A DNA stretch of 32,000 nt. It comes from Candidatus Saccharimonadota bacterium (lineage in GTDB: Bacteria > Patescibacteriota > Microgenomatia > UBA1406 > GWC2-37-13). Under the pieces are notes generated by a model that did no database searches, was not told the DNA's origin, and saw nothing but the letters and a program-made list of their open reading frames with translations. The position numbers and the translations under genes were made by a program. This document shows positions 818-30,155 of the stretch, one piece after another; the first letter of the stretch is position 1, and every line of letters starts with the position of its first letter. The stretch spans positions 780,001-812,000 of the forward strand of contig CP065004.1 in NCBI GenBank assembly GCA_016700135.1. The letters are read 5' to 3'.

Positions 818-1900
818 TCAATATATTGTATGAGTTCCATACATATGGCACTCTTTAGGTAAAATAGATAATAGGTAATCCATAGGTGAAATATTGTTCA
901 GGCTTTTGTGAACTCGCTTTGTATTGTACCAGACGAGGTATTCAATAAGGTGACGATTGAATGATCCGATACCGGTCCACTTGGTATAGATGTAGGGGTT
1001 CATAAATTCTTCCTGGAGTGTTCTGTTTGCTCGCTCAATAAAGGCATTGATCTTGGGACATCTGGGGTAGATAAAGAGGTGTGGGATATTGTTTTCTTCC
1101 AGATAGTCATGGAAGTTTCCCAGATACTCGAGGCCGTTATCTGTTTGTATGGTTTTTATACCATCTTGTATTGGGTATACTAGTTCCAGTCTTCTCATAA
1201 AATCAGCACCGTTTCGGCTGTTGAGTTTTGAGTATCCGTAGGAGAACTGGAATTTGAGTTTGATGTCCACTGCATTGAAGACATACAGCTTGATTCCGTG
1301 TACAAACTTCGTGATGGTATCAATCTCAATGTATCCGGTATCTTCCACCTTGGGAGACCGCTTGACCTTCTGTCGGTACTTTACTTTCCGTTTTGCAAAG
1401 CCACTTGCTGGATTGTGATAGATCCGGTAGGTCTTGCGCTGCAGGTTGTGTCTTTTGATCACTTTTCCAATGGTTGACTCAGATATAGTTGAAATTCCTT
1501 CCTGTAGGCAATACTCATCAAGTAAGGGCTTGATCTTCTCCTTTCCCAAACAAAAGTATTGTTCTCGAATCTCTTTGATAAAGGATATGACCTTCGGGTG
1601 AGTCTCCATACGTCGGGGTGTCTTTGGCTTGGTTGTCTCTGGTATCAGGCTATCCAACTGCCCTTCTGAATCTCGCCGTCTCTTCCTCCATCGAAACAAT
1701 GTCCTTCGTGATATCCCATATGCATCAACTGCAGCTTGTATCCCGTACTTCTCTGCAAATGTCAGAACATCGTTTCTGATTTGTGCTACATCTGACTGAT
1801 TGTAGTCTGATAGAGATCGTATCTTTTTCATAAGATCTCTATTGTACTGCCAGTCATAACTCCTAATTACTCGAAGCTGATCTCCTCCCCATTTACTCAT
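818..1900 (-). CDS. DDE (rve/integrase-core) transposase, IS481-like
   Basis: 360-aa ORF. N-terminal HTH (ISRRTLFRWRKRRR...PKTPRR). Catalytic-core-like motifs are NAVDIKLKF, QTDNGLEYLG, NAFIERANRTLQEEF and YNTKRVHKSL. The single-ORF layout is typical of IS481. Confidence 0.85.
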   Translation of the reverse strand: MSKWGGDQLRVIRSYDWQYNRDLMKKIRSLSDYNQSDVAQIRNDVLTFAEKYGIQAAVDAYGISRRTLFRWRKRRRDSEGQLDSLIPETTKPKTPRRMETHPKVISFIKEIREQYFCLGKEKIKPLLDEYCLQEGISTISESTIGKVIKRHNLQRKTYRIYHNPASGFAKRKVKYRQKVKRSPKVEDTGYIEIDTITKFVHGIKLYVFNAVDIKLKFQFSYGYSKLNSRNGADFMRRLELVYPIQDGIKTIQTDNGLEYLGNFHDYLEENNIPHLFIYPRCPKINAFIERANRTLQEEFMNPYIYTKWTGIGSFNRHLIEYLVWYNTKRVHKSLNNISPMDYLLSILPKECHMYGTHTIY

Positions 1901-15008: not shown

Positions 15009-16088
15009 ATGACAGAATCAACAGAATCATCACGAGTCGCAGAAACACTTCTTTTCCAAAACGAGCAGGATTGGCAGGGGAGGACAGTAATCAATCTCAG
15101 CGGGTATAACAGCTGGCAGGTTGAAGCGTTGGGAATCAGAAAATGGATACAGCCTATTCCTGCAGAACGTATGGTTCTTTTTCCTGATATCTCTCCAACG
15201 GAAACCGGACTTATTGTCCCGACGGGCGTGATGGCTGATTTTGATATGGCAAAAGTTCCCGAATGGAGAAAGTTTATCCGGGGTGCCGATATCGGATGTG
15301 GTATGCAGATGAGTACATTACCGCTTAAAGAAGAGGAATTTGTGAAAAATCAGAAAGCTCTCGATGAACTTTATGAACGCTTAGGACGTGAAGGGCTTCT
15401 TCAATGCTTCAGAGGAAATCATTTCATTAACTTTGCAAAAGATATTGACACGGGAAATATGCAGGTACTGGTACATACGGGTTCCTATGGTGATGCACAA
15501 AAGAAACTTTCAGCACTGGTTGATCATCCGGAACAGTATGATGCAGAGTATAAACGCACGATTGAATCAGGAAGAGATACCAGAAACAGAATTATGCATG
15601 TAATCGGGAAAGTGTACGGAGAGGGAGAATCATTTGATACGGTTCACAATACGGTTGAAATGAATGAAAAAACCGGAATTGCCCGTGTATATAAAGGTGT
15701 TGTAGCAGTCAAAAAGGAAGGGGAACGTCAGGTTTTACCCAGTTCATTAAACGGGATAATGGTCGTATATAACACAGGGAAAAAAGCGGAAGAAATCGGA
15801 GGAACATCACACGGCACAGGACGGGCTGTCAGCAGATCGGCAATCCGAAGAACTATAGATGAAATACGGGAACAATACCACGAAAAAGAACAGGACGGCA
15901 GAATTGATCCGAAGCAATTGCATATTATGACCCCGAGCGGTCTCCGCTGGCCGGTAACGGAGATAGATACCGCTTATCATTCTATTGACAGGTCATTAGA
16001 TCTTATGGAAGGAAGCGGGCTTATGAAACATGTTGATCAGCAGTTCCTTCAGCCTATAGCAGGTATAAAAAGTGGTTCGGAAGAGTGA
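15009..16088 (+). CDS. rtcB: RtcB-family RNA 3'-phosphate ligase (compact, divergent)
   Basis: The ordered RtcB signature motifs are present: GADIGCGM, RGNHFINF (GNHF), VLVHTGSYG (HSGSRG-like), VHNTVE (HN), YKGVVAV and SHGTGRAVSR (HGAGR-like). At 359 aa it is shorter than typical RtcB. Confidence 0.8.
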   Translation: MTESTESSRVAETLLFQNEQDWQGRTVINLSGYNSWQVEALGIRKWIQPIPAERMVLFPDISPTETGLIVPTGVMADFDMAKVPEWRKFIRGADIGCGMQMSTLPLKEEEFVKNQKALDELYERLGREGLLQCFRGNHFINFAKDIDTGNMQVLVHTGSYGDAQKKLSALVDHPEQYDAEYKRTIESGRDTRNRIMHVIGKVYGEGESFDTVHNTVEMNEKTGIARVYKGVVAVKKEGERQVLPSSLNGIMVVYNTGKKAEEIGGTSHGTGRAVSRSAIRRTIDEIREQYHEKEQDGRIDPKQLHIMTPSGLRWPVTEIDTAYHSIDRSLDLMEGSGLMKHVDQQFLQPIAGIKSGSEE

Positions 16089-17144
16089 TCACTTTTTTCT
16101 TTGATATCCAAGCTGCATTCGTGAACCGATGTCTCTCATACGTTCAGAAAGCAAAGCAGCAATACGCATACAATTTTCTCTTCCGTATTTTTTTTCAAGA
16201 AAGACCGCCGGATTTTCAGAGCCTGAGCCGGAAGTTTCCTTTTCCTTGGCAATTCGCTCACCAAGCTGTATTAAGTCACTCCATTCGGTGAGTGGTTGAG
16301 CGTTTACACCGCTCTTTTTTACAGAACCTTTCATCAATTCTGCAATATATTCTCCTAAAACAATATCAGAAACGGCAGGAGCTCCAAAATGTAATGTTGG
16401 GACATCATCTTTAAAGCTGGCCACCGCAATATCGCTAATCCAATTCGGATCTTTCACAAGGGATAGTAATGTAACTGTCATCGGTTCAGATGGTATTCTC
16501 TCTGTAGTTGGGGAAAGCGAATCAAGAACTGATTGCATATGTTTACCTGCATTCGTTCGTAACGTGATATCTGGTCTTCCGATTTGTTCCAGTGCTGATT
16601 TCAGTAATAGGGGTGTAGTCACACCGAGTGTCGTGCCTAGCTGGAGAGTATCATCCACGACGGCCAGATTGCCCGAACTGTTTTTTAATCGTTCAGCCAG
16701 AAAATCTACTGTTTCAAGAGCCTGCTTATCATGTTTTAACCATACTGCATATTGAGTAATATGCTCGTGATGGGGGAATTGGGGATTTCCTTTTATATCA
16801 AAAATGTCTAATGCAGCTTTAGGGTGATCTGTATGAAATCGATTATGAAATCTGCGGTCAATAACGGTTCTAAATTCTGTTCCCGTCGGAACATGAAGTC
16901 TTTGGAGTGCTGAATTAAGTGTCTGAAATGCTATCGGACCTGATCTTTCAAGCAGTAGGAATGATTGCGGCTGCGGAGATATTGGCTCTAATGTTTGTGG
17001 ATTTACAAAAAATCGAAGAGAGTTGTTCACTCCGGATTCTATGGAGTGTTGAATAGTATCAGGGATCACAAAAGGCGGTAAGTCCTGAACGGATTCAGTT
17101 TCTGTTCGTGAAGGCTGAAGGGGAGTATTTTCAAGTTCTGTCAT
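16089..17144 (-). CDS. hypothetical protein with phosphoribosyltransferase-like PRPP-loop motif
   Basis: 351-aa ORF. NLAVVDDTLQLGTTLG resembles the type I PRTase PRPP-binding loop (hydrophobic-DD-x-x-x-G-x-T). The rest is unrecognised. Confidence 0.55.
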   Translation of the reverse strand: MTELENTPLQPSRTETESVQDLPPFVIPDTIQHSIESGVNNSLRFFVNPQTLEPISPQPQSFLLLERSGPIAFQTLNSALQRLHVPTGTEFRTVIDRRFHNRFHTDHPKAALDIFDIKGNPQFPHHEHITQYAVWLKHDKQALETVDFLAERLKNSSGNLAVVDDTLQLGTTLGVTTPLLLKSALEQIGRPDITLRTNAGKHMQSVLDSLSPTTERIPSEPMTVTLLSLVKDPNWISDIAVASFKDDVPTLHFGAPAVSDIVLGEYIAELMKGSVKKSGVNAQPLTEWSDLIQLGERIAKEKETSGSGSENPAVFLEKKYGRENCMRIAALLSERMRDIGSRMQLGYQRKK

Positions 17145-17311: not shown

Positions 17312-18066
17312 ATGCAAAAAAACAAGACTATGTAAAAGTCTCGTCGTATGAGGGCCGTAAGGGAGAAGTCAAGAAAGTTGTTCTTCTGTATTCAGGCGGA
17401 CTTGACACATCAGTGATGCTCAAATGGATTCAGGAAGAATATAATGCCGAAGTTGTGGCTCTTACTATTGATATCGGTCAACAGGCAGATGATCTTGAGG
17501 AAATCAGGAAAAAGCCCTGAAACTGGGTGCAGTGAAAGCCTTGGTTATTGATGCAAAAGATGAATTTGCCAATGAATATATCGCAAAAGGCATCAAGGCA
17601 AATGCCTCCTATCAGGGAGATTACCATCTCTCAACACCGATCGGACGTCCTCTTCTTGCAAAATGGGCAGTAAAAATCGCAGCGGCAGAAGGAGCTGACA
17701 CGATAGCTCACGGATGTACCGGAAAGGGGAATGATCAGGTACGTATTGAAGGAGTTGCATTAGCACTGAATCCCGATGTGAAAATCATTGCTCCTGTCCG
17801 TGAATGGGGGATGGGACGTGACGAAGAGCTGGAATACGCAAAAACACAATATTCCGGTGAAACAAACAGCGGCAAAGCCGTATTCATATGATGACAATAT
17901 GTGGGGAGTAACCGGTGAAGGCGGTGAGATAGAAAATCCTGGACTTATTCCGCCCTTGGCTGACATTCTGCAGGTTTCAACACTTCCGGAAAATGCAGTC
18001 GACAAACCGGAATTTGTCGAATTGGAATTTCTAGTTAATCCCGATCAAAGCCTTTGCAATATATAA
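17312..18066 (+). pseudogene. argG: argininosuccinate synthase (argG) relic: frameshifted and 3'-truncated
   Basis: ArgG motifs are spread over three frames: [18 protein letters not shown]..., HGCTGKGNDQVR..., and KPYSYDDNMWGVTGEGGEIENP...PEFVELEF. The frame changes occur at A-runs 17316-17322 (less certain), 17509-17513 and 17840-17844. Similarity ends near 18033, so roughly the last 40% of the gene is absent. Confidence 0.85.
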
Positions 18067-18196
18067 AAAGAGAAGAAAAAGGAAAGAGATTATAAGTTTA
18101 GTAAATCCGATGAAGTATTGATTCAGTATTCAAAAAACAACTATGCTACTATTTGTATGAATCTTGGGTATTTTTTGGTTTGATCAAGTATTCAGA

Positions 18197-18892
18197 CTAC
18201 TTCAGGACATTTTTCATATCAATGAGTCTTCCGATACGGGCTCTCAGATCTCCGTGCTGCTTGAATACATATTGCATCAGATTACGATCGGCGATCATGA
18301 TGTGCTCAGGTAACTGAAGAATAACAGATCCGTTCCGACTGCTAGTACATGCTGTAAGAGTCATGACATCTCTCCCATACGGTGATAGTTCCATCCACAA
18401 CTGAAGCATATTACTATCATCAGTTCGAATACCAAGACCGAGATTTGTAGGCTTTGCGAGAGCATCATGCGTGCGTCTGACCGGTCCGACATCTCCGAAC
18501 CGCTGCGATACATCGGTAATATCTCGTGATGAGATTGCGCGATAACCTCCGTAGGCATTCATTTCGATCCGTTCTCCTGACGGTGCTTTGAATTCACAGT
18601 ACACACCGGGATCCATACCCATTTCAACCATTTCTAGATTTTTTTGTGCAAATCGCTCATCTTTTTGTGCCACCTTTCGATCACGAAGTGTAAATAAGCT
18701 GTCCGGACGGGAAAATATTTCGGTTGCCTGATCGGCAGTCCGAATGATTTCCTGTGCATGTGCGGGCAGATATATACCTCCTGCCGGATCATCAAGAATT
18801 TGTGCATACACATAACTGAATTCAATTAATGTTTCCGTAAGGCCTTGACCTTCTGCTCTTACCTGTTCATTCGGTCGTAGATGTTCAGCCAT
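18197..18892 (-). CDS. hypothetical protein
   Basis: 231-aa ORF on the same strand as, and 92 nt downstream of, the cytosine-deaminase-like gene. I recognise no motif. Confidence 0.65.
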   Translation of the reverse strand: MAEHLRPNEQVRAEGQGLTETLIEFSYVYAQILDDPAGGIYLPAHAQEIIRTADQATEIFSRPDSLFTLRDRKVAQKDERFAQKNLEMVEMGMDPGVYCEFKAPSGERIEMNAYGGYRAISSRDITDVSQRFGDVGPVRRTHDALAKPTNLGLGIRTDDSNMLQLWMELSPYGRDVMTLTACTSSRNGSVILQLPEHIMIADRNLMQYVFKQHGDLRARIGRLIDMKNVLK

Positions 18893-18984
18893 AGAAAAAG
18901 AGAAAAGAATAATGAGTGGATATTATACACATACAATATGTATAAATCAAACCTGAAGATAATCTCTTTCTGTGTATATTCCGG

Positions 18985-19974
18985 TTATTCCAATCCCAAT
19001 ACTTTTCTTCCGTTTACTGTGGCAATTTTCACCAATTCATCAAGATCCATGAAACGGTTTCCGATTGCCATAAGTTTGAGTTCACTCCACATATCGCCGT
19101 CCGTGAAGGGGAGCATGTAGTCGGCGATATTGTCAGATCCGATCGCGACGGTGATACCGTGTTTTACCAACTCGTCAACAGGGGTGAGTGCGTTGTGAAA
19201 AGGCTGAAGATCTTCATGACGCGGAGCATCAATCCAGGCTGTAGGACAGCCGATCATCATGACCTGTGCTTCTCTCAACTTTGCATATACGTTTTTACGA
19301 TACTCCTTCGGATGGGCAGCAAGGGATATAGAGTGCACGGCAACAACCTTTCCCTGCATTCCGTGTTCGATCGTTTTTTCAGCTAACAGTTCGGTTTCTT
19401 TGTCCGACTGAGTGTTGAACTGATCGACATGTACATGAACCATTTTGCCGTGCTTTTTTGCCGTTTCAAGAAGGATATCCATATGTTCAGAGCCTTTTCC
19501 GTGATCACGTTCGTCCCGTTTGGGCAATCCGCCCACGATATCAACGTATTCCATAGCGCGGTCAAACCATTTTCTTGCCTCCGGTTCGATCACTCCTTTT
19601 AAAACCTGATTGATAAGAACGACTGAAATCTGGTCTTTGTACTGTTCTTTTGCGCGGACTGCCGCTTTTGCCGCACGGTCTTCCGCGACGGGATCAATAT
19701 CAATAAATGATCCGACAGCTGTCACTCCCTGACTGATCATCAGTTCAAGAGCCATCGAAATTCGTCGGTAATATTCTTCTTCTGATGCGTTTTTGACCAC
19801 ATCAACCAGATCCCATTTTTCTTCAAGCGTATGTTTTCGATAAATATCAAGACTTTCAGGGGTGATGGTAAAAGCCCGATCGATATGAGCATGAGAGTTT
19901 ACCCAGCCGCCGTTTTTCTTAATTTCTTCGATGAGAAGGTGCTGAAAGTTCCATTGTGGTGCCTGTTGTGACAT
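18985..19974 (-). CDS. amidohydrolase-superfamily deaminase, cytosine-deaminase (CodA)-like
   Basis: VNSHAHIDRAF (HxH), MVHVHVDQ, VVAVHSISL and GSDNIADYMLPFTDGDMW resemble CodA metal and active-site segments. I prefer the start at MSQQAPQ (19974), because the track's 40-aa N-terminal extension merely reads through the repeat at 19999-20067. Confidence 0.75.
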   Translation of the reverse strand: MSQQAPQWNFQHLLIEEIKKNGGWVNSHAHIDRAFTITPESLDIYRKHTLEEKWDLVDVVKNASEEEYYRRISMALELMISQGVTAVGSFIDIDPVAEDRAAKAAVRAKEQYKDQISVVLINQVLKGVIEPEARKWFDRAMEYVDIVGGLPKRDERDHGKGSEHMDILLETAKKHGKMVHVHVDQFNTQSDKETELLAEKTIEHGMQGKVVAVHSISLAAHPKEYRKNVYAKLREAQVMMIGCPTAWIDAPRHEDLQPFHNALTPVDELVKHGITVAIGSDNIADYMLPFTDGDMWSELKLMAIGNRFMDLDELVKIATVNGRKVLGLE

Positions 19975-19998
19975 AGTAGGTTTTGAATAAATAACATT

Positions 19999-20067
19999 GT
20001 CATCCCGACCGTTAGTGGAGGGATCCCTCATGATCAAAAGGGATTTCTCGACTTCGCTCGAAATGAC
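19999..20067. repeat. 69-bp ORF-less hairpin repeat (same family as the GIY-YIG arms)
   Basis: The L arm is 29/29 identical to 6365-6393. A 12-nt spacer TCATGATCAAAA follows. The R arm GGGATTTCTCGACTTCGCTCGAAATGAC matches 6687-6714 at 24/28. It fills the udk-to-deaminase intergenic gap. Confidence 0.8.
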
Positions 20068-20071
20068 AGCT

Positions 20072-20692
20072 CTAAACTGATAATCGCTTTTCAAGCGTGT
20101 GGATCAGGGTTGATACTGCTTTTTCGTTTTTTCCGCCACGCGGGATGATGATATCCGCAAATTCCTTGGTTGGCTCCACGAATTTTTCGTGCATCGGACG
20201 GGCAGTTGCGATATATTGAGCATAGACGGAATCAAGCGTACGCCCGCGTTCTTCAATATCCCTCTTGGCGCGACGCAAAATCCGGATATCCGCCGGTACG
20301 TCTACGTAAATTTTCAGGTTTATAAGGTCACGGAGGAGGGGATTATCAAAAATAAGAATACCCTCAATAAGAATAAGCGGAGCAGGAGAGACAGGTGTTG
20401 TTATATCTGTTTTTCTGGTATGTTGGGTAAAATCGTACTCAGGCACTTCAATAGTATTTCCTTTTTGTAGATCCTGAAGATGAGATATAAAGAGTTCGGT
20501 TTCCAGTGCATCAGGATGATCATAGTTTGTTTTGACACGCTCTTCCATTGATTTAGCTGACTGATCTTTGTAGTACCGGTCATGGGGAATATATACCGCT
20601 CGAGTTTTGAAATGTTCGTAGATTTTTTCGGCGATTGTGGTCTTTCCGGAACCCGTTCCTCCGGCAATTCCGAGAATTAGCTTGTTGTGCAT
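20072..20692 (-). CDS. udk: uridine kinase
   Basis: P-loop GIAGGTGSGKTT, YKDQS, NYDHPDA, EGILIF, R..RD..ERGR. Confidence 0.93.
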   Translation of the reverse strand: MHNKLILGIAGGTGSGKTTIAEKIYEHFKTRAVYIPHDRYYKDQSAKSMEERVKTNYDHPDALETELFISHLQDLQKGNTIEVPEYDFTQHTRKTDITTPVSPAPLILIEGILIFDNPLLRDLINLKIYVDVPADIRILRRAKRDIEERGRTLDSVYAQYIATARPMHEKFVEPTKEFADIIIPRGGKNEKAVSTLIHTLEKRLSV

Positions 20693-20747
20693 ATTTTTCT
20701 TATATTATATGAAAATTTAGGTAAAATGGAGAAAATTTATATAAATA

Positions 20748-20776
20748 TTGCTTATTTTTTCAAAAAATGGTATAAT
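20748..20776 (+). promoter_or_regulatory. sigma70-type promoter for the Urc1-like operon
   Basis: TTGCTT (20748-20753), a 17-nt spacer ending in TGG (extended -10), then TATAAT (20771-20776). It lies 64 nt upstream of the ATG at 20841. Confidence 0.55.
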
Positions 20777-20840
20777 ATTTCCTAATTTATAGTAAATAGT
20801 ATGAATAATACTATATTAGCATATTTCAAATAGAATTAAT

Positions 20841-22025
20841 ATGCATCACGCAGAACATGGTCATCAACCCGTTGAAGTTTCAGCAAACTATCAACAGGCT
20901 CTTGAAGGAATGATTGCCTATCAGGAGAAGGGTGTGACTGTTTTTCGCGGAGGTCCTCTTGATCTTCGTCACCATGGCATTGAAGATGCATGGTTGACTC
21001 CTATTATTGTTTCTGACAATGATAGCCACACAAGTTTTCATGCAATTCAAATAAACGGAAGCATTGGTGAGATGCAGGGGTCAGATTTCGAACTGAACGT
21101 GGCAAGTGATATTAAACTTAAGTTAGGTGATGTTGACTCTCCTCAGGTCGCGGAATTGAATAGAGTGCTTACAGAAGCCGGAGACGGGAGACCGCGTACT
21201 ATCATAAGACCGAGTATTGCCGGAAATATTGCATATCCCGTGATTTCTACACCAGCAACACTTGCTGAACCTCATTTATTGTTAGAACGGGCTCAAAAAG
21301 CAGCGGGAATATTCGGATCCCGATTGGTTGCCGACAATTGTGATATTTATCATTTAGAGCAGGAGGTTTTCGTACCTGCTATGTCGACGGGTGATCTCAC
21401 TATGGGGAAAGTACGACAGGTAAATGCATCTTTCGGAGACGTTTTTGTTTATCCGGTGCATGTAAACGGGGGAGATCCCTGGAAATACTACGAAGTAATA
21501 TCCGCTACACCGCTTGAAGATATCAGCAGAAAAGGTCCGATGACGATCCGTGTTGACTCAGGATGTGATATCGGACAGTGCTATCATGACGGAGGATGTG
21601 ATTGCCGAGCCCAACTGCACGATGCACTTATTGAAGCACAGAATACTGACGGACTGATTATTCACATCCCTTCGCAGGATGGAAGGGGATACGGCATGGC
21701 AGCAAAAATGGCTACTGAAGGCGGTAAACGAGGGATTGATGTCGGCTACAATGCCGGAAAGCCGCCGATGGATACGATAAAAGCAGCAACAGAACTACTT
21801 GGACCTAATTACGATATCCGGACATACGAGAGCGTCGGACAGATGCTTATGACACTGGGATTTTCACGCGTAACACTCCTTACTGACAGTCGCAAAAAAC
21901 TTACCGCTTTGGAAAAGGCAGGGTTGGAGGTAATCCGAAAACCGACCAATACACAAAACGGCAATCATCATGCACACGATCACGTTCAGGCAAAACACTC
22001 AACACCTGATTATTTTGCAGATTAA
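20841..22025 (+). CDS. GTP cyclohydrolase II homologue with a roughly 230-aa N-terminal extension (Urc1-like architecture)
   Basis: The C-terminal half matches the RibA pattern: IRVDSGCDIGQCYHDGGCDCRAQL (C-x10-C-x-C zinc site), QDGRGYGM, DIRTY, and LGFSRVTLLTDSRKK...GLEV. The N-terminal domain is unrecognised by eye. Confidence 0.75.
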   Translation: MHHAEHGHQPVEVSANYQQALEGMIAYQEKGVTVFRGGPLDLRHHGIEDAWLTPIIVSDNDSHTSFHAIQINGSIGEMQGSDFELNVASDIKLKLGDVDSPQVAELNRVLTEAGDGRPRTIIRPSIAGNIAYPVISTPATLAEPHLLLERAQKAAGIFGSRLVADNCDIYHLEQEVFVPAMSTGDLTMGKVRQVNASFGDVFVYPVHVNGGDPWKYYEVISATPLEDISRKGPMTIRVDSGCDIGQCYHDGGCDCRAQLHDALIEAQNTDGLIIHIPSQDGRGYGMAAKMATEGGKRGIDVGYNAGKPPMDTIKAATELLGPNYDIRTYESVGQMLMTLGFSRVTLLTDSRKKLTALEKAGLEVIRKPTNTQNGNHHAHDHVQAKHSTPDYFAD

Positions 22026-22028
22026 CTT

Positions 22029-22820
22029 ATGATAGAAACACAAATTGATACAATTGAAAGACAAAACGCACAGGCACTTTATGAGATGCAACAGCATTTC
22101 CAGAAAATGGATGCCGGATTCGGTATCGTTTCAGATATTGATGAAACGGTCGTTGATACCGTCGGACGACATGTAATGTTTGTCTCACGGGGAGCGAAAC
22201 TTGCAGGTTTTCAGGGAACTTTGCCGACTCTTGAAGAAATTAAAGCAGCAGGCGGCACAGCAGAGTATGCACGCGTGTTCGGCATGTCGGCCGATGAATG
22301 GGAAGAGATTATGAAACGGGTGCGTGAACGACAATTCGTCAACGAGAAAGCAAATCTGTATCATCCTAAGACTGTTAAGACACTCCTGAACGGGGGAGAA
22401 CTGCTGGGATTTGTCACTGCAAAGCCCGGTACGGAACGCACCCTGGCTGCGACCCAACGAGATCTTACTCAGCGTTTGGGTTTTCCTGAAAGACCGGTAA
22501 TTCTCAGACCGAATTCAGTTCCCCTTTCACAAACAGAGTGGAAAATAGAAACGCTTTGCGCCATTAAAGGCATTTCACCGAAGGGTATTGTGCTTGTCGA
22601 TGACAGTCTCAGTACTGCACGTGCAATTGCAGCGCACAATCAGGAGGCAGGGAAGTTAGATATTATGCAGATTCTATATAAAGGACCGCTGACAGTCCCT
22701 GCACTTGAATCCGGTAAATTCATTCCTGATGAATCACTCGGGATTTATGCTGCCGATTGGGATGAAATGCCCGAAGTATTTGATAGAATAAGAGAACAAT
22801 GTCACCTTACCCAAAACTAG
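22029..22820 (+). CDS. HAD-superfamily hydrolase (probable phosphatase)
   Basis: Motif I IVSDIDETVVDT (DxDxT) and late VLVDDS (motif IV-like). It starts 3 nt after the upstream stop. Confidence 0.65.
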   Translation: MIETQIDTIERQNAQALYEMQQHFQKMDAGFGIVSDIDETVVDTVGRHVMFVSRGAKLAGFQGTLPTLEEIKAAGGTAEYARVFGMSADEWEEIMKRVRERQFVNEKANLYHPKTVKTLLNGGELLGFVTAKPGTERTLAATQRDLTQRLGFPERPVILRPNSVPLSQTEWKIETLCAIKGISPKGIVLVDDSLSTARAIAAHNQEAGKLDIMQILYKGPLTVPALESGKFIPDESLGIYAADWDEMPEVFDRIREQCHLTQN

Positions 22821-23626
22821 TCATTATTGGCTACACCAACATTGACATCAATATTACCCCAAAATCTCAGAGTACCTTGCCCGGCGGTGCAGCATATTTT
22901 GTCGCATGTGCCGCGTCAATTCTCACTTCAAATGTCGGACTTGTGACCCGAATCGGTTATGATTTTGATCCTGAATTTTTACTGTCCCGTGTCGTAAAAG
23001 ACGGCGTTCATATCATCCCCGACAAAGAAACGGCAAAATCCATTCAGACGTATTTCTCATTGAATGATCCGACGGATCGTGATGTGGTTTTGAAAAAAGG
23101 TGTCGCTCAGGATCTCAACCCGAATGATATCCCGGAAGGGTGGATTGAAAATGCCGAGATCATTCATGTTGCTACAATGCCGCCTGAGTACCAGAAAGTG
23201 TTCATCGAATATGTGAAAGAAAACAAAGGTGAACACACACTGCTGTCTACAGATACCGAACTTTCATTTGTAAAGAATCCCCGGATGAAAAAACAAATAA
23301 TCAAAAACATGCAGTATCCTGATATGGTTTTCGTAAATCGACTGGAATATGAACTGTTGAAAGATGAAATGAAGCATATTGAGCATGTGATCGTGAAACT
23401 TGATAAAGACGGTGCCGTGTATCTGCATCAGGGGAAAGAGGAGTGCCGCGTAACTACAAAAAATACTGAAGCTGTGGATTCCACCGGAGCGGGAGATATT
23501 TTTGCCGGGACATTCCTGGCGTCACGTGTCAACGGAGATACTATTGAAACAGCACTTCAGAAAGGCGCAGACGAAGCAACTCATTCCATTGAGCAGGAAG
23601 GAATTATGCACTTATTCGAAGAATAA
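22799..23626 (+). CDS. PfkB-family sugar/nucleoside kinase (ribokinase-like)
   Basis: GGAAYFVA N-terminal motif and the C-terminal PfkB signature DSTGAGDIFAGTFLA. It overlaps the HAD gene by 22 nt. Confidence 0.85.
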   Translation: MSPYPKLVIIGYTNIDINITPKSQSTLPGGAAYFVACAASILTSNVGLVTRIGYDFDPEFLLSRVVKDGVHIIPDKETAKSIQTYFSLNDPTDRDVVLKKGVAQDLNPNDIPEGWIENAEIIHVATMPPEYQKVFIEYVKENKGEHTLLSTDTELSFVKNPRMKKQIIKNMQYPDMVFVNRLEYELLKDEMKHIEHVIVKLDKDGAVYLHQGKEECRVTTKNTEAVDSTGAGDIFAGTFLASRVNGDTIETALQKGADEATHSIEQEGIMHLFEE

Positions 23627-24439
23627 TCGGATTGTTTTTCGGTATTCTTCAACAACCTCATGTGATTTTTCTGCGAAGTCTTCTGCAGGTGATGCAAAAA
23701 TAACACTCCGTGAAGCGTTGACGACAAACCGATCTTTGTTCGGAAAAAGCTTTAGATCTTCGATATTTCCTCCTTGCGCACCCAATCCCGCGGCAAGAAA
23801 AAACTGATCATCAGGTGAAAGTTCGATGATTCGTTTCAATATATCAGGGTAGGTGAGAGGCCCTTCGACGAGAATGTTGCCAACTTTGTCCCAGCTCCCG
23901 ACTACCATTTTTGTGAGATATTCATACAGTTTTTCACCAGACTGCAATGTGACATCCTGCAGGTCTCCTGCTGACGGATTGGAGTCATGACAGAGGACAA
24001 ATACCGCTTTATCTTTATAATTCAAAAAGGGTTCAATCGTATCAAACCCAAACCACGGAGTCACGGTTGTGGCATCAAAAAGAAACTCATCAAACAGTTC
24101 TTTCGCGGCCAGTTCAGCTGTCCGCTTCATCTCACTTCGCTTGGAATCAACAATAATCTTTATTTCCGGATAGTTTTTTTTGATATATTCATTGGTTCTT
24201 TTAAGAGCTATAAGACCGTCTATCCCATATCCCGCATAGCAGACCATGTTCAGCTTATAAACAGGCGTAATATCCGCCGTCGCATCAATGATTTCTTTAT
24301 TGAACTGAAAAACGGCATCAGCGAGTGAACTATCTTTTTTGACGGACTCAGGAAGTTTCTCATAGTCCGAGTCCAATCCGACGCAAATATTGGATTGTTT
24401 TTTTGCTATTTGTTCAGATAATTGAGTTTTGAAGATCAT
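23612..24439 (-). CDS. pyrF: orotidine-5'-phosphate decarboxylase, type 2
   Basis: ICVGLDSDYEKLP, YKLNM..Y, IIVDSKRSEMKRT (DxKR), DATTVTPWFG, VFVLCHDSNPSA and AAGLGAQGG. Confidence 0.85.
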   Translation of the reverse strand: MIFKTQLSEQIAKKQSNICVGLDSDYEKLPESVKKDSSLADAVFQFNKEIIDATADITPVYKLNMVCYAGYGIDGLIALKRTNEYIKKNYPEIKIIVDSKRSEMKRTAELAAKELFDEFLFDATTVTPWFGFDTIEPFLNYKDKAVFVLCHDSNPSAGDLQDVTLQSGEKLYEYLTKMVVGSWDKVGNILVEGPLTYPDILKRIIELSPDDQFFLAAGLGAQGGNIEDLKLFPNKDRFVVNASRSVIFASPAEDFAEKSHEVVEEYRKTIRLFFE

Positions 24440-24448
24440 AGAGTAATC

Positions 24449-25309
24449 TTACCATTTCCCGTCCGGATGTACAGTGAAAAATACATACTCAGGCAAGTCC
24501 TGACGTTGTACGGGAAGACCGGGAAGTGAAAAATATTCACAGCGAATTCCTGAATTGTCACCGTTTGAGCTTTGCCAGTTTGATCCCGGCTTGATGACCA
24601 CCGAAGAGAGGTGATACAACGGATCATAATGATGTGTGATCAGTGTGAGATACATTTCGCCGAGGCTCACCGGTAGAGTAGAGGTGACTGCAAACGGGTG
24701 TTCGGCAGAATCCCCCTGAACGGGACGCAAAAACTGCGATACGGCTTTCCGTACGCTGCCGTTTTGGGGCATATGAATCTCGGGACCGTCGGGATCGACT
24801 TCATAGAATTCTTCTTTATTGATATGTATCCCGAGTAAATCATAGTGGTCAGTGCAGCAGGGTCTTTGTCCTGGTCTCCATTGTACCGCACCCCGTGAAT
24901 CAGCAATGACAAAACCGTTTCCCGATACTTCAATGCAATGCCTCACTGCATCAAGAAGCTGATCTCCATGAGCTGCAAGAGAAGGGTCAAAGAGAGTAGT
25001 GAAGGGCATGTCCTGATCAATATGTACAGGCCGAGGCCCGTGATTTATGACATGTCCGATAAAGGTATTATCACCATTGTTGTGGAGTCCGGTCATATTT
25101 AAACCGATCTGTGCAAACCGGCTGCGGACACTGAAAAGGGGAAGCTGTGAAAGACAGGGGTTTTCACCTTGAAGTAAAATACTTGCCGATTTGCCCGGAT
25201 TTGTTGAAAACGGTTCAAGAAGTGTCTCCTCACAAACGACAAGATCGTGCTCACCGTAACGGTATCCGGATTCCTGACGTGCCTGTAGTAATTGCTCAAT
25301 GCGGGTCAT
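24449..25309 (-). CDS. dCTP-deaminase/dUTPase-fold protein (long DCD-like), function uncertain
   Basis: VRSRFAQIGLNMTGLHNNGDNTFIGHVINHGPRPVHIDQDMPFTTLF aligns by eye with E. coli Dcd [52 protein letters not shown]. There is no obvious counterpart of the LEF glutamate. It lies 9 nt upstream of pyrF. Confidence 0.5.
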   Translation of the reverse strand: MTRIEQLLQARQESGYRYGEHDLVVCEETLLEPFSTNPGKSASILLQGENPCLSQLPLFSVRSRFAQIGLNMTGLHNNGDNTFIGHVINHGPRPVHIDQDMPFTTLFDPSLAAHGDQLLDAVRHCIEVSGNGFVIADSRGAVQWRPGQRPCCTDHYDLLGIHINKEEFYEVDPDGPEIHMPQNGSVRKAVSQFLRPVQGDSAEHPFAVTSTLPVSLGEMYLTLITHHYDPLYHLSSVVIKPGSNWQSSNGDNSGIRCEYFSLPGLPVQRQDLPEYVFFTVHPDGKW

Positions 25310-28298: not shown

Positions 28299-29219
28299 AT
28301 GGCAAATCTTTCAGTTAGTCTCGCCGGAATTTCTCTTCAAAATCCCACCATACTAGCCTCAGGAATTATGGGAGTAAGCGCTTCGTCATTGAAATTTGTA
28401 GAAGAACACGGTGCTGGAGCTGTGACGATGAAATCAATCGGGCCGACTGACCGAACGGGCCATAAAAATCCGACAGTGTATTCGTGGGGAGAGGGGATTA
28501 CGAATGCCGTAGGGCTTTCCAATCCCGGAGCAGAGGAAGGCGCAGCGCACCTTGAAGAAATGAAAAAAATTCTTCATATCCCGGTTATCGCGAGTTGTTT
28601 TGCCGATACGGTCGATAATATTGCTAAAGTGGCTGAAAAACTTTTAGAAAAAGAGCCGTTAGCACTTGAATTAAATCTATCCTGTCCGAATACTGAGGAT
28701 GATTTCGGTTGTATGTTTGCAATGGATCCTCGTGTCACTGAACGGGCGGTTACACTTGTGAAAAAAACCAGCGGCAAGACGAAAATTTTTGTGAAACTTT
28801 CACCTGATGCTTCGAATATTGTTACTGTCGCAAAAGCGGCGGAAGCTGCAGGAGCAGACGGAATTACAGCCATTAATACGCTGTCCGGGCTTATTATTGA
28901 TATCCATACTAAGCGACCGATTTTGAAAAATACATTCGGCGGTTTGTCGGGTCCAGCGATCAGACCGGTAGGTGTTCGGGCGGTTTACAATCTGTATGAA
29001 GCCGTTAAAATTCCGATTATCGGGACGGGAGGCATTAATACTGGTGAGGATGCGATAGAGTACATTATGGCCGGAGCAACGGCCGTCGGGATCGGTTCGG
29101 GAGTGTATTACCGGGGTATTGATGTTTTCGGAAAAGTGACTGAGGAGATGGAGAATTTTATGGATCAGAACGGTTATAAATCGTTGGAGGAGATGAGAGG
29201 GATTGCACATAAATGTTAG
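28299..29219 (+). CDS. pyrD: dihydroorotate dehydrogenase, class 1B catalytic subunit
   Basis: NPTILASG, GAVTMKSIG, LNLSCPN, ITAINT, GGLSGPAIRPV, IIGTGGI. Confidence 0.93.
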   Translation: MANLSVSLAGISLQNPTILASGIMGVSASSLKFVEEHGAGAVTMKSIGPTDRTGHKNPTVYSWGEGITNAVGLSNPGAEEGAAHLEEMKKILHIPVIASCFADTVDNIAKVAEKLLEKEPLALELNLSCPNTEDDFGCMFAMDPRVTERAVTLVKKTSGKTKIFVKLSPDASNIVTVAKAAEAAGADGITAINTLSGLIIDIHTKRPILKNTFGGLSGPAIRPVGVRAVYNLYEAVKIPIIGTGGINTGEDAIEYIMAGATAVGIGSGVYYRGIDVFGKVTEEMENFMDQNGYKSLEEMRGIAHKC

Positions 29220-29339
29220 GGCACGTTGTTGTGTTCCAGATTCCGCCCTCGCTTTATCCTCCCGCCAGTGCTCATTCCATTGCGCGCTGTCGGGAACCCT
29301 CCAGCTCGGCCACCTGTTCCGCGAAAATAAATCAAGTCT

Positions 29340-30155
29340 ATGAAAAAAATTGACAAACCATTAGCATTGCCGATACAAAAAATAATCACGGAAAGTGAGA
29401 GAGTGAAGACGTATGTTTTTGATTATGATTTTCCGGGAGAGCCGGGACAATTTGTGATGTGCTGGATTCCGGGTTTTGATGAGAAGCCGTTTGGCATTAT
29501 CAAAAAAGAGGGTAAGGGATTTCGGATCTCTGTTGCGGCAGTCGGCGACAGCACAAAAGCCATGCATATGATGGAAGAGGGAGATTTGCTCGGATTCAGA
29601 GGGCCGTACGGATCCGTATTTGTACTCCCTGAAAAAGGAAAACAGATCGCAATGGTTGCAGGCGGATACGGAATGGTGCCGTTGTCGTATTTGGCACAGG
29701 AAGCCCGGAAAAAAGAGTATAAAGTACATCTTTTCATCGGAGCCCGGAACAAACAGGAATTACTGTTTAAAGAGTGGATGGAGGAGATCGGAGTCCTGGT
29801 TCACGCCTCGACGGATGACGGATCGGAAGGATACAAAGGCTTCAATACCGATCTTTTCAAATCAAATGCTGAGAAAGAAAGTTACGACAAAGTCTACACG
29901 GTCGGTCCGGAAATTATGGAACTGAAGATCGCACAAATTTGCTGGGAAAAAAATATTCCGTTTGAAGTCTCACTTGAACGATATATGAAATGCGGATTCG
30001 GCATTTGCGGACAATGCAGTGTCGATCCCACAGGCTGGCGTATGTGTGTCGAGGGACCGGTAATTGACGGAGAGAAGTTGAAGAAGATCGAGGAATTCGG
30101 TAAATATCACCGGACAGCCTCCGGCAAGGTAGAGAAATATCCCTGGGTGAAATAG
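29340..30155 (+). CDS. pyrK: dihydroorotate dehydrogenase electron-transfer subunit
   Basis: FNR-like fold (PGQFVM, GPYG, VAGGYGMVPL) and the C-terminal 2Fe-2S motif MKCGFGICGQCSV. Confidence 0.9.
   Translation: MKKIDKPLALPIQKIITESERVKTYVFDYDFPGEPGQFVMCWIPGFDEKPFGIIKKEGKGFRISVAAVGDSTKAMHMMEEGDLLGFRGPYGSVFVLPEKGKQIAMVAGGYGMVPLSYLAQEARKKEYKVHLFIGARNKQELLFKEWMEEIGVLVHASTDDGSEGYKGFNTDLFKSNAEKESYDKVYTVGPEIMELKIAQICWEKNIPFEVSLERYMKCGFGICGQCSVDPTGWRMCVEGPVIDGEKLKKIEEFGKYHRTASGKVEKYPWVK

What the first reader, a model, noticed from the sequence alone, without database searches (positions are those of the whole stretch)
18985..25309. Divergent operon pair resembling a bacterial URC-type pyrimidine-nucleoside breakdown and salvage cluster
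Leftward from the AT-rich region 20693-20840 run udk and a CodA-like deaminase. Rightward, from a near-consensus promoter, runs a tightly coupled trio with a 3-nt gap and a 22-nt overlap. The trio is a GTP-cyclohydrolase-II homologue with a long N-terminal extension, a HAD phosphatase and a PfkB kinase. Converging on them are a dCTP-deaminase-fold protein and pyrF. The only well-known GCH-II homologue acting on pyrimidines is Urc1 of the yeast URC uracil-catabolism pathway. That pathway starts from UMP made by a PRTase and has ribosylurea as an intermediate. Here udk or the deaminase could feed UMP to the Urc1-like enzyme. The HAD enzyme could then dephosphorylate a ribosylurea-phosphate-like product, and the PfkB kinase could recapture ribose. 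No riboflavin genes are nearby to suggest a RibA role. Such a route would matter for a reduced genome that scavenges nucleosides. The pathway assignment is inference from gene content.
Basis: partly seen in the sequence, partly recalled or inferred. Interest (0 to 1): 0.65.

Follow-up and report, generated by a model that had tools for sequence, protein, structure and literature searches.

The report
Orphan cyclohydrolase-II homologue coupled to OMP decarboxylase
A tiny-genome (candidate phyla radiation) bacterium carries a conserved gene cluster in which an uncharacterised relative of the riboflavin enzyme GTP cyclohydrolase II is coupled to a second type of the UMP-forming enzyme OMP decarboxylase (the two are fused into one protein in other organisms), which points to an undescribed step in pyrimidine-nucleotide metabolism rather than to riboflavin synthesis.

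Summary
Udk, the PfkB kinase and the GTP-cyclohydrolase-II (GCH-II) domain are solid. The 'HAD' and 'dCTP-deaminase-fold' calls rest on weak evidence. The 'CodA-like' protein lacks CodA's catalytic Glu.

The GCH-II homologue (GCH2L) is neither RibA nor Urc1-type. It scores far below the RibA cut-offs, and RibA Tyr105 is an invariant Glu. Its 180-residue N-domain matches no Pfam family (including GTP_CH_N) and no PDB fold.

It belongs to a small family from the candidate phyla radiation (CPR) and DPANN archaea. Its near-universal partner is not HAD or PfkB. Elsewhere the two are fused into one polypeptide, once together with a guanylate-kinase-like domain. The GCH2L-HAD-PfkB trio occurs only in the window's sub-lineage, in 6 loci reaching down to 39% identity.

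So a pyrimidine-nucleotide role is well supported, and a Urc1-like ring hydrolysis of a uridine nucleotide is the best guess. The URC salvage scheme itself is unproven, and no URC4, upp or urea genes were seen.

The parts
18985..20094 (-). Amidohydrolase-superfamily protein of the uncharacterised PRK06886 family. It is cytosine-deaminase-like only at subfamily level, and the likely true start is the ATG at 19974.
   Evidence: NF005365 scores 493 bits against a cut-off of 340, and the CodA models reach only about 100 bits against cut-offs above 400. Identity to E. coli CodA is 22%. The metal ligands HxH/H/H/D are kept, but CodA Glu217 is Gln, and the CodA N- and C-terminal extensions are absent. 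Orthologues lie next to the module in L001, L032, L042 and L002.
20072..20692 (-). Uridine/cytidine kinase (udk).
   Evidence: TIGR00235 scores 254 bits (cut-off 220) and NF004018 scores 276 bits. It is conserved divergently from GCH2L in L001, L032, L033 and L042.
20693..20840 (.). AT-rich divergent intergenic region with an extended -10 (TGgTATAAT, 20768-20776) facing the GCH2L operon.
   Evidence: Read directly from the sequence. The -35 is weak and the element was not picked up by the consensus scan. Promoter function is inferred.
20841..22025 (+). GCH2L: a 394-aa protein with a novel N-terminal domain (about residues 10-180) and a GTP-cyclohydrolase-II-fold Zn hydrolase domain (about 180-394).
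   Evidence: PF00925 scores 73 bits on residues 227-366. The AF2 model has pLDDT 90.9. In Foldseek only the C-terminal half matches RibA structures 4rl4 and 2bz0. The C-x2-G-x7-C-x-C motif and the Arg327 equivalent of RibA Arg128 are invariant, and RibA Tyr105 is an invariant Glu293.
22029..22820 (+). p263: a probable HAD-superfamily phosphatase, restricted to this lineage.
   Evidence: DxDE (36-39), T130, K172 and DDS (191-193) are invariant in six orthologues. There are sub-threshold Pfam hits to APP1_cat (E 0.0023), HAD_2 (0.0086) and Hydrolase (0.036). The profile has no PDB sequence hit. It is present in 6 of 41 long-type loci.
22799..23626 (+). PfkB-family sugar or nucleoside kinase of unassigned specificity.
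   Evidence: PF00294 scores 113 bits. The best NCBIfam matches are ribose-1-phosphate kinase (70 bits) and ribokinase (66 bits), both far below their cut-offs. Orthologues lie next to GCH2L in 9 loci, and in each the OMPDC is W-type or carries the W-clade Glu motif.
23612..24439 (-). OMPDC-W: a divergent type-2 OMP-decarboxylase paralogue (motif DSKRSEM instead of DAKRGDI). This is the conserved partner of GCH2L.
   Evidence: TIGR02127 scores 188 bits, against 229-251 bits for the canonical copies present in the same genomes as W or S copies (L002, L015). It forms a separate clade in the NJ tree. The catalytic and binding motifs are retained. An OMPDC-like gene lies within 6 kb of GCH2L in 35 of 41 loci. 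It is fused to GCH-II homologues in P0148, P0162, P0174, P0183 and P0185.
24449..25309 (-). p286: a lineage-specific protein, possibly with a dUTPase/dCTP-deaminase-like beta-barrel.
   Evidence: It has no Pfam, NCBIfam or PDB sequence hit. Only 9 relatives exist among 5.8 billion proteins. The AF2 model has pLDDT 67.5. The best high-probability Foldseek hits are dUTPases (TM about 0.5 over about 100 aa), but all have E>=0.05.

Best explanation
The region is one lineage's version of a conserved CPR/DPANN pyrimidine-nucleotide module. Its core is a Zn hydrolase of the GTP-cyclohydrolase-II superfamily (GCH2L), which is neither RibA nor Urc1-type, working with its own OMP-decarboxylase paralogue.

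Most likely mechanism:
1. OMPDC-W makes UMP from OMP, and Udk makes UMP from uridine.
2. Nucleotide kinases raise UMP to the triphosphate. Elsewhere these kinases are encoded in the module as guanylate-kinase-like or UMP-kinase-like genes.
3. GCH2L binds the uridine nucleotide and expels pyrophosphate through the conserved Arg (RibA Arg128 equivalent).
4. GCH2L uses its Cys3-Zn site to hydrolyse the pyrimidine ring. This is a Urc1-like reaction, probably a single hydrolytic step because RibA's Tyr105 is replaced by Glu.
5. In this lineage the HAD-like phosphatase and the PfkB kinase then process the ribosyl-5'-phosphate product.

What is shown:
- gene content and order;
- conservation of the catalytic residues;
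- non-membership in the RibA and Urc1 families;
- conserved linkage and fusion with OMPDC and kinases.

What is inferred: the substrate (uridine rather than guanine nucleotide), the ring-opening chemistry, the order of the steps, and the roles of HAD, PfkB, the amidohydrolase and p286.
For: **Catalytic machinery.** C-x2-G-x7-C-x-C and the DxR[TS][YF] Arg are invariant in 19 family members. Their roles in RibA are given in PMC10366380.

**Not RibA.** All RibA/RibBA NCBIfam models score 61-75 bits against cut-offs of 148-764. Tyr105 is Glu, and there is an insertion of about 13 residues. No rib genes occur in the window or in six annotated contexts.

**Partners.**
- OMPDC-like genes lie within 6 kb in 35 of 41 long-type loci, and 3 of the 6 misses are contig ends.
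- Single-chain fusions exist: GCH-II+OMPDC (P0148, P0162, P0183, P0185) and GCH-II+OMPDC+guanylate-kinase-like (P0174). OMPDC+GK-like is fused after GCH2L in L050/L051.
- Archaeal-type UMP-kinase genes flank GCH2L in L035, L036, L048 and L003.
- ThyA-like genes occur in 18 of 41 loci.
- Udk occurs in the window clade.

**Distinct OMPDC copy.** Every OMPDC-like group keeps the OMPDC catalytic and binding motifs. L002 and L015 also hold a canonical pyrF, so the linked copy is a distinct paralogue.

**Parallel with the URC system.** There the GCH-II homologue URC1 works with a UMP-forming enzyme, URC6 (UPRT) (PMC7530994).

**Trio.** GCH2L-p263-PfkB is conserved down to 39% identity (L043).
Against: - No biochemical data exist for any family member, and the literature searches found nothing.
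- There is no Urc1 N-domain and no URC4, upp or urea genes.
- A dedicated de novo-type OMPDC feeding a catabolic route is odd.
- The guanylate-kinase-like partner and the fold itself could equally point to a guanine nucleotide.
- The short-form relatives rarely have an adjacent OMPDC (2 of 43) and carry Leu rather than Glu at the Tyr105 position.
- HAD and PfkB are absent from most of the family, so their proposed roles are lineage-specific guesses.
- The census used HMMs built from the loci themselves, on 6-frame ORFs. A few loci are duplicates (L019/L046, L050/L051).
Confidence: 0.38

Rival explanations
1. GCH2L still uses GTP. It would be a RibA-like or GCH-III-like cyclohydrolase that stops at a ring-opened or formylated diaminopyrimidine nucleotide. 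That product would feed an unknown, non-riboflavin pathway. The guanylate-kinase-like partner would supply GDP/GTP, and the OMPDC-like protein would act on the ribosylamino-pyrimidine 5'-phosphate product.
For: - The only detectable homology is to GTP cyclohydrolase II.
- The Zn site and the Arg for pyrophosphate release are intact.
- A guanylate-kinase-family partner occurs in 23 of 41 loci and in the triple fusion.
- L035/L036 carry a second copy that is closer to RibA (131 bits).
- From memory: replacing the RibA Tyr in a Streptomyces coelicolor paralogue gives a GCH-III-type product.
Against: - All other partners are pyrimidine enzymes: OMPDC paralogue with intact uracil- and phosphate-binding motifs, Udk, UMP-kinase-like, ThyA-like.
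- The guanylate-kinase match is weak (39-58 bits), so its specificity is open.
- No downstream riboflavin or pterin genes were seen in any context.
Confidence: 0.2
2. GCH2L is a non-orthologous nucleotide-interconversion enzyme, for example a Zn/Glu-dependent (d)CTP deaminase-pyrophosphatase or a dUTPase analogue. It would yield (d)UMP for the ThyA-like enzyme and the NMP kinase. On this view the module is biosynthetic housekeeping (UMP, dUMP, dTMP, dTDP) and not ring cleavage.
For: - A ThyA-like gene lies directly upstream of GCH2L in the Saccharibacteria-type loci, with the catalytic Cys and the uracil-specifying Asn read by eye.
- An NMP-kinase-like gene lies downstream.
- The invariant Glu293 next to a Cys3-Zn site resembles the Zn+Glu chemistry of nucleotide deaminases (inference).
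- The module sits next to pyrD, a PRTase and pyrF in L002 and L015, and next to pyrD/pyrK in the window.
Against: - The window clade has no ThyA-like gene and already has a possible dUTPase-fold protein.
- Short forms carry Leu, not Glu.
- This reading does not explain why OMPDC in particular is fused to the GCH-II domain.
Confidence: 0.15
3. This is simple co-location of pyrimidine housekeeping genes. The window's 'pyrF' would be the ordinary OMP decarboxylase of the de novo pathway (pyrD and pyrK are 4 kb away), and GCH2L, HAD and PfkB would be functionally unrelated neighbours.
For: - OMPDC-W passes the NCBIfam pyrF cut-off.
- pyrD and pyrK lie at 28299-30155.
- No second pyrF is visible in the 32-kb window.
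Against: - Covalent GCH-II/OMPDC fusions exist in at least five 50%-identity clusters.
- The adjacency holds across 29-90% GCH2L identity and several phyla.
- L002, L015 and L021 have two OMPDC genes each, and the divergent one always sits next to GCH2L.
Confidence: 0.05

Closest known systems
RibA, GTP cyclohydrolase II (E. coli 2bz0, H. pylori 4rl4)
   Same: Same fold for residues about 180-394 (Foldseek TM 0.75-0.84 normalised to the target). It has the same C-x2-G-x7-C-x-C Zn motif and the same Arg used for pyrophosphate release.
   Different: About 25% identity, and below all RibA cut-offs. Tyr105 is replaced by an invariant Glu, and there is an insertion of about 13 residues after the 'KMxTE' segment. 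It has an extra 180-residue N-domain of unknown fold. There are no rib genes nearby, and its partners are pyrimidine enzymes.
Urc1/Urg1 of the fungal URC uracil-catabolism pathway (and the bacterial PRK07198-type proteins)
   Same: It is a GCH-II homologue with a long N-terminal extension that is genomically tied to a UMP-forming enzyme: OMPDC or Udk here, UPRT (URC6) there (PMC7530994). This is the only precedent for the fold acting in pyrimidine metabolism.
   Different: The N-domain does not match GTP_CH_N. NF005536 scores 16 bits against a cut-off of 403. No URC4/DUF1688, UPRT or urea amidolyase partner was found. The identification of PRK07198 with the Urc1 type is from memory and was not tested.
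UMP synthase and other OMPDC fusion proteins (OPRT-OMPDC, NF004034)
   Same: OMPDC is covalently fused to the enzyme of an adjacent pathway step. In the GCH-II+OMPDC fusions the GCH-II domain occupies the N-terminal position that OPRT has in eukaryotic UMP synthase.
   Different: The partner is a Zn hydrolase and not a phosphoribosyltransferase. Genomes such as L002 and L015 also keep a separate PRTase and canonical pyrF pair.
Non-carboxylating pentose bisphosphate / nucleoside-ribose salvage kinases (PfkB ribose-1-phosphate kinase plus HAD phosphatase in Halobacteria)
   Same: The best NCBIfam match of the window PfkB is an ATP-dependent ribose-1-phosphate kinase (70 bits). A HAD-like phosphatase lies next to it.
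   Different: The score is far below the cut-off of 330. No R15P isomerase, nucleoside phosphorylase or aldolase is in the cluster. The comparison rests on memory of that pathway.

Membership tests
RibA (GTP cyclohydrolase II, riboflavin pathway) | Score above the curated RibA/RibBA model cut-offs | tested here: not met
   NF001591 scores 75 against 148, TIGR00505 scores 68 against 206, and the RibBA models score 61-69 against 486-764.
RibA (GTP cyclohydrolase II, riboflavin pathway) | Cys3 Zn motif (C-x2-G-x7-C-x-C) and the Arg128 nucleophile | tested here: met
   C242, G245, C253, C255 and R327 are invariant in alignment A1. The motif definition comes from PMC10366380.
RibA (GTP cyclohydrolase II, riboflavin pathway) | Catalytic Tyr105 (its role in the second hydrolytic step is recalled from memory) | tested here: not met
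   It aligns to an invariant Glu293 in the long forms and to Leu in the short forms.
RibA (GTP cyclohydrolase II, riboflavin pathway) | Occurs together with ribB, ribD, ribH and ribE | tested here: not met
   None appears among the annotated window ORFs or in contexts L032-L037. Whole genomes could not be inspected.
Urc1/Urg1-type GCH-II homologues | N-terminal GTP_CH_N domain (PF12471) | tested here: not met
   No hit in any of 19 family members at E<=1.
Urc1/Urg1-type GCH-II homologues | Match to the bacterial full-length model NF005536/PRK07198 (assumed to be Urc1-type, from memory) | tested here: not met
   16.4 bits against a cut-off of 403, and on the catalytic domain only.
Urc1/Urg1-type GCH-II homologues | Linkage to URC4/DUF1688, UPRT and urea amidolyase | tested here: not met
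   None of these families appears in the Pfam listings of the neighbourhoods or in the window scans.
Urc1/Urg1-type GCH-II homologues | Phylogenetic placement with Urc1 sequences | not tested
   No Urc1-type sequence could be obtained. The plasmid tblastn gave only RibA types.
Orotidine-5'-phosphate decarboxylase, type 2 (pyrF_sub2) | Score above the TIGR02127 cut-off, with retention of GLD, the Lys, DxKxxD, SNP, GxGxQGG and SSR | tested here: met
   188 bits against a cut-off of 110.6. All motifs are present except that the second Asp of DxKxxD is Glu (DSKRSE). It forms a separate W clade beside the canonical copies. Activity is untested.
HAD superfamily phosphatase (p263) | Motifs I (DxDx[TV]), II (S/T), III (K) and IV (DD) in order, plus a family-model match | tested here: inconclusive
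   The motifs are invariant in six orthologues (L043 has DKDEM). Only sub-threshold Pfam hits were found: APP1_cat 0.0023, HAD_2 0.0086, Hydrolase 0.036. There is no PDB sequence hit and no structure model was made.
PfkB carbohydrate/nucleoside kinase | PF00294 above the gathering score | tested here: met
   113 bits against 25.8. No equivalog cut-off was reached, so the substrate is unassigned.
Cytosine deaminase CodA | CodA model cut-off and the catalytic Glu217 | tested here: not met
   The CodA models score 74-103 bits against cut-offs of 403-483. Glu217 aligns to Gln in the window, L032 and L002. The protein belongs instead to the uncharacterised family NF005365.
dUTPase/dCTP deaminase superfamily (p286) | Beta-barrel fold match and conserved nucleotide-binding motifs | tested here: inconclusive
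   The model has pLDDT 67.5. dUTPases dominate the high-probability Foldseek hits, but all have E>=0.05 and TM about 0.5 over about 100 residues. There is no sequence-level hit.
Uridine kinase (Udk) | Equivalog model cut-off | tested here: met
   TIGR00235 scores 254 against 220 and NF004018 scores 276 against 180.

The most novel reading that the evidence does not exclude
GCH2L, its dedicated OMP-decarboxylase paralogue and a nucleotide kinase would form a previously undescribed pathway of CPR bacteria and DPANN archaea. These are fused into bi- and tri-functional proteins in some lineages and are often joined by a small CxxC...CxxC zinc protein and a ThyA-like enzyme. The pathway would convert a uridine nucleotide, made from OMP, into a ring-modified product that these organisms need. 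On this reading it is a new branch of pyrimidine metabolism catalysed by a new reaction type of the GCH-II fold, and not a URC-style nitrogen-scavenging route.
Probability: 0.3. Interest if true: 0.8.

Novelty: new variant of a known kind. Interest (0 to 1): 0.6.

Why it matters
CPR bacteria and DPANN archaea have minimal metabolism that is poorly understood. Any module they conserve across phyla, and even fuse into one protein, is likely to matter for their parasitic lifestyle.

A GTP-cyclohydrolase-II fold enzyme hard-wired to OMP decarboxylase has no described counterpart. Automatic annotation calls the pair 'ribA' and 'pyrF'. That falsely suggests riboflavin capacity and hides a paralogue.

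Working out the reaction would do three things:
- define a new activity of the GCH-II fold;
- possibly clarify the still uncharacterised Urc1 chemistry;
- correct metabolic reconstructions of these lineages.

Tried and rejected
- **Is the N-terminal extension a degenerate RibB domain, as in RibBA or PRK08815?** Rejected. Foldseek aligns RibBA structures (4i14, 6mnz) only through the GCH-II half, and no PDB fold matches residues 1-180 at E<1e-3.
- **Getting Urc1-type sequences for a phylogeny.** A tblastn of the catalytic domain against plasmids gave only RibA-type proteins. The phylogenetic test was therefore not done.
- **Sequence-profile searches of p263, p286 and the small Zn protein against the PDB.** Nothing was found for p263 or p286. 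The Zn protein gave only non-significant eS27, Mis18 and LGP2-CTD hits.
- **Anti-phage defence reading (nucleotide-depleting system).** No PADLOC family matched apart from a trivial P-loop hit for udk.
- **Literature.** Eight searches found no description of this family, of a GCH-II/OMPDC fusion, or of a URC pathway in CPR.
- **ThyA-like, GK-like, Zn-protein and NTPase_1 partners in the window.** A tblastn found none.
- **First structure job for p286.** It was rerun with 8 rows.

Full report
**1. The observation**

The seven ORFs are present exactly as described:
- amidohydrolase 18985-20094 (-);
- udk 20072-20692 (-);
- a 394-aa GCH-II homologue 20841-22025 (+), called GCH2L here;
- a 263-aa ORF 22029-22820 (+), 3 nt after GCH2L;
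- a PfkB kinase 22799-23626 (+), overlapping the 263-aa ORF by 22 nt;
- an OMP-decarboxylase-family gene 23612-24439 (-);
- a 286-aa ORF 24449-25309 (-).

The 148-nt divergent spacer is AT-rich. It carries a perfect extended -10 (TGgTATAAT, 20768-20776) with a weak -35. The consensus scan did not list it.

Domain scans confirm four of the calls:
- Udk, TIGR00235 254 bits;
- PfkB, 113 bits;
- a GCH-II domain confined to residues about 196-387 (PF00925, 73 bits);
- a type-2 pyrF-like protein (TIGR02127, 188 bits).

- *The 'CodA-like deaminase'.* It belongs to the uncharacterised family NF005365/PRK06886 (493 bits) and is 22% identical to E. coli CodA. It keeps the metal ligands but has Gln at CodA's catalytic Glu217. 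It also lacks CodA's N- and C-terminal parts. It probably starts at Met41, the ATG at 19974.
- *The 'HAD phosphatase'.* It has no above-threshold family hit. Six orthologues keep DxDE, T, K and DDS in the correct HAD order. Sub-threshold hits to HAD-type Pfam models appear in three of four orthologues.
- *The 'dCTP-deaminase-fold protein'.* It has no sequence relatives outside nine close homologues among 5.8 billion proteins. A medium-confidence model (pLDDT 67.5) retrieves mostly dUTPases, all at non-significant E-values.

**2. The organism**

The window's DnaB is 87% identical to a Candidatus Woesebacteria protein and 70-77% identical to Roizmanbacteria proteins. A 94% relative sits on a 940,728-bp contig. 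The window therefore comes from a small Microgenomates (CPR/Patescibacteria) genome.

Locus L001 is the closest public relative (GCH2L 90%, DnaB 97%). It is labelled 'Gammaproteobacteria' in its record, and that label is evidently wrong.

**3. What the GCH-II homologue is not**

*Not RibA.* It scores 61-75 bits on every RibA/RibBA model, against cut-offs of 148-764.

A profile search of the PDB and a Foldseek search with a confident AF2 model (pLDDT 90.9) both match RibA structures. Both do so only over the C-terminal half.

The Zn motif C-x2-G-x7-C-x-C is invariant, and so is the Arg that in RibA attacks the alpha-phosphate to expel pyrophosphate (roles from PMC10366380). RibA Tyr105 aligns to an invariant Glu (E293), followed by an insertion of about 13 residues.

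*Not Urc1-type.* The N-terminal 180 residues hit no Pfam family in any of 19 members, including GTP_CH_N. They have no significant PDB fold match and are not RibB-like.

The model I take (from memory) to represent bacterial Urc1-type proteins, NF005536/PRK07198, scores only 16 bits.

No riboflavin, URC4/DUF1688, upp or urea-handling genes were seen in the window or in any annotated neighbourhood.

**4. The family and its real partners**

An exhaustive HMMER search of 1.84 billion cluster representatives finds only 108 clusters at E<=1e-30, of which about 70 are full length. Named members are Saccharibacteria, Shapirobacteria and Parcubacteria. Shorter GCH-II-only relatives occur in other CPR groups and in DPANN or other archaea.

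I collected 84 loci from GTDB genomes, from metagenomes and by exact-protein look-ups. I then counted neighbours using HMMs built from the loci. The table gives counts among the 41 loci with a full-length GCH2L.

| Neighbour within 6 kb | Loci (of 41) |
|---|---|
| OMPDC-like gene | 35 (3 of the 6 misses are contig ends) |
| Small CxxC...CxxC protein | 23 |
| Guanylate-kinase-like protein | 23 |
| Short ThyA-like protein (PF00303, 35.5 bits) | 18 |
| PfkB orthologue | 9 |
| HAD-like p263 | 6 |
| Udk | 5 |
| p286 | 5 |
| Amidohydrolase | 5 |
| Archaeal-type UMP-kinase-like genes | 4 |

**5. Fusions**

Among the representative hits there are several single-chain fusions:
- P0148, P0162 and P0183 carry GTP_cyclohydro2 + OMPdecase, and P0185 does too.
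- P0174 (782 aa) carries GTP_cyclohydro2 + OMPdecase + Guanylate_kin.
- L050 and L051 encode an OMPDC+GK-like fusion directly after GCH2L.
- Five clusters fuse the small Zn protein to the N-terminus of a short GCH-II domain.

These fusions make a functional coupling of the GCH-II homologue with OMPDC and a nucleotide kinase very hard to dismiss as neighbourhood inertia.

**6. The OMPDC paralogue**

The linked OMPDC genes form clades separate from the canonical type-2 pyrF.

| Clade | Motif | TIGR02127 score | Where found |
|---|---|---|---|
| Canonical (C) | DAKR[GA]DIG | 229-251 bits | L002, L003, L015 |
| Window-type (W) | DxK[RK]xE | 146-188 bits | window clade, L002, L021, L035/36 |
| Saccharibacteria-type (S) | DGKF[AG]DVGHT | 165-189 bits | Saccharibacteria-type loci |

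L002 and L015 each have a canonical copy, next to a pyrD-like gene and a PRTase, in addition to the GCH2L-linked copy. L021 has both S and W copies in the module.

All groups, including the fused domains, keep the OMPDC catalytic and phosphate/uracil-binding motifs. They probably decarboxylate OMP or a very close analogue.

In every PfkB-bearing locus whose OMPDC was typed (eight of nine), the OMPDC is W-type or carries the W-clade Glu motif; L042 also carries the Glu motif DSKRSEMKRT.

The window also has pyrD and pyrK 4 kb away but no pyrE. Whether its genome has a second, canonical pyrF could not be determined.

**7. Mechanism: what I commit to**

Four lines of evidence point the same way:
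- the catalytic apparatus for pyrophosphate release and Zn-activated hydrolysis is intact;
- the RibA-specific Tyr is gone;
- the partners are UMP-forming enzymes (OMPDC, Udk), nucleoside-monophosphate kinases, a ThyA-like enzyme and a possible dUTPase-fold protein;
- the only precedent for this fold in pyrimidine metabolism, Urc1, likewise works with a UMP-forming enzyme, URC6/UPRT. The steps from uracil to ribosylurea and 3-hydroxypropionate are still uncharacterised (PMC7530994).

I therefore think the most likely reading is that GCH2L acts on a uridine nucleotide. That nucleotide would be supplied by OMPDC-W and Udk and raised to the triphosphate by kinases. GCH2L would release pyrophosphate and hydrolyse the pyrimidine ring. 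In this lineage the HAD-like and PfkB enzymes would then process the ribosyl-phosphate product.

My confidence that the substrate is a pyrimidine nucleotide is about 0.55-0.6. My confidence in Urc1-like ring cleavage specifically is about 0.3-0.4. The proposed HAD and PfkB roles are weaker still.

The rivals are:
- a GTP-using cyclohydrolase arrested after the first hydrolysis (0.2);
- a (d)CTP/dUTP-processing interconversion enzyme feeding the ThyA-like protein (0.15);
- unrelated neighbours (0.05, contradicted by the fusions).

A point against a purely catabolic URC-type reading is that the module owns a de novo-type OMPDC. That suggests the product, rather than nitrogen or ribose recovery, may be the purpose.

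**8. Verdict**

'Not RibA' and 'pyrimidine-linked' hold. 'Urc1 family member' and 'the HAD/PfkB trio is the core' do not. The salvage chemistry is untested.
- The family is uncharacterised and is mis-annotated as ribA plus pyrF. Its fusion with OMPDC is, as far as the searched literature shows, undescribed.
- I rate it a new variant of a known kind (the GCH-II superfamily and Urc1-like logic). There is a real chance (about 0.3) that it marks a new pathway.

**Caveats**

- The census HMMs were built from the same loci and applied to raw six-frame ORFs.
- A few loci are duplicates (L019/L046, L050/L051, L058-60).
- The taxonomy labels of several MAG records are unreliable.
- No Urc1 sequence was available for a direct phylogeny.

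Noticed in passing
L002:3571-9805 (minus strand); compare window 17532-20094: In the Parcubacteria locus L002, one same-strand run encodes six genes in order: an ArgG-MGS fusion, a DDAH/ADI-like amidinohydrolase, the PRK06886 amidohydrolase (48% identical to the window's), a DHO_dh-like protein, a PRTase and a canonical pyrF. This suggests a possible non-canonical route to carbamoyl-aspartate and dihydroorotate from argininosuccinate or citrulline, with the 'CodA-like' protein acting as a dihydroorotase analogue. This is speculative.
   Followed up: partly
window 17532-18066: Only fragments of argininosuccinate synthase remain. There is a 119-aa piece matching Pfam positions 55-158, then a frame change. 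L001, L032 and L002 have an intact ArgG-MGS fusion of about 550 aa at the equivalent place. This is probably a pseudogene or a sequencing frameshift.
   Followed up: partly
window 16089-17144 and 18197-18892 (both minus strand): These two ORFs (351 and 231 aa) have no Pfam, NCBIfam or PADLOC hit and no counterpart in the 37 loci held when they were searched (L001-L037). They flank the broken argG and look like lineage-specific insertions.
   Followed up: partly
window 12791-14875: This 694-aa ORF lies in a block of 57-61% G+C, against about 43% elsewhere. It has an N-terminal hydrophobic segment and long Pro/Thr-rich linkers (PPTSTP repeats, with a 27-nt tandem repeat at 13427-13497). It has no Pfam hit and is probably a secreted or surface protein.
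   Followed up: partly
window 818-1900 (minus strand): An IS-type transposase (rve_3 integrase core plus HTH domains). A similar one lies between pyrF and the module in L015 (6906-7949).
   Followed up: no
L005:12702-13079, L022, L024, L029, L034-L037; proteins P0136, P0154, P0160, P0188, P0198: A protein of about 125 aa with two CxxC pairs and a YQKDG.G.L.R.Y.DRI motif accompanies GCH-II homologues in 36 of 84 loci. In five clusters it is fused to their N-terminus. It has only weak, non-significant similarity to eS27, Mis18/Yippee and the LGP2 C-terminal domain. It is absent from the window.
   Followed up: partly
L035:2715-8337 and L036:5781-11410: These loci carry two GCH-II homologues. One is the long GCH2L. 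The other is 239 aa, closer to RibA (131 bits), and has C-x10-C-x-C but Asn in place of the motif Gly. Two archaeal-type UMP kinase genes and the PfkB orthologue lie around one OMPDC.
   Followed up: partly
L001 (CAYMVU010000001.1), L003, L011, L018: These records are titled Gammaproteobacteria, Pseudomonadales or Paenibacillaceae but carry CPR-type gene content. L001's DnaB is 97% identical to the window's, whose nearest named relatives are Woesebacteria and Roizmanbacteria. The taxonomy labels look wrong.
   Followed up: partly
window 28299-30155: pyrD (class 1B type) and its pyrK electron-transfer subunit lie 3 kb from the cluster. No pyrE, pyrB or pyrC is in the 32-kb window. The same pyrD neighbourhood occurs in L001, L032 and L033.
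   Followed up: partly
window 15009-16088: This 359-aa ORF matches only the C-terminal third of the RtcB RNA ligase model (profile positions 274-425, 46 bits). It may be a truncated or very divergent RtcB.
   Followed up: no
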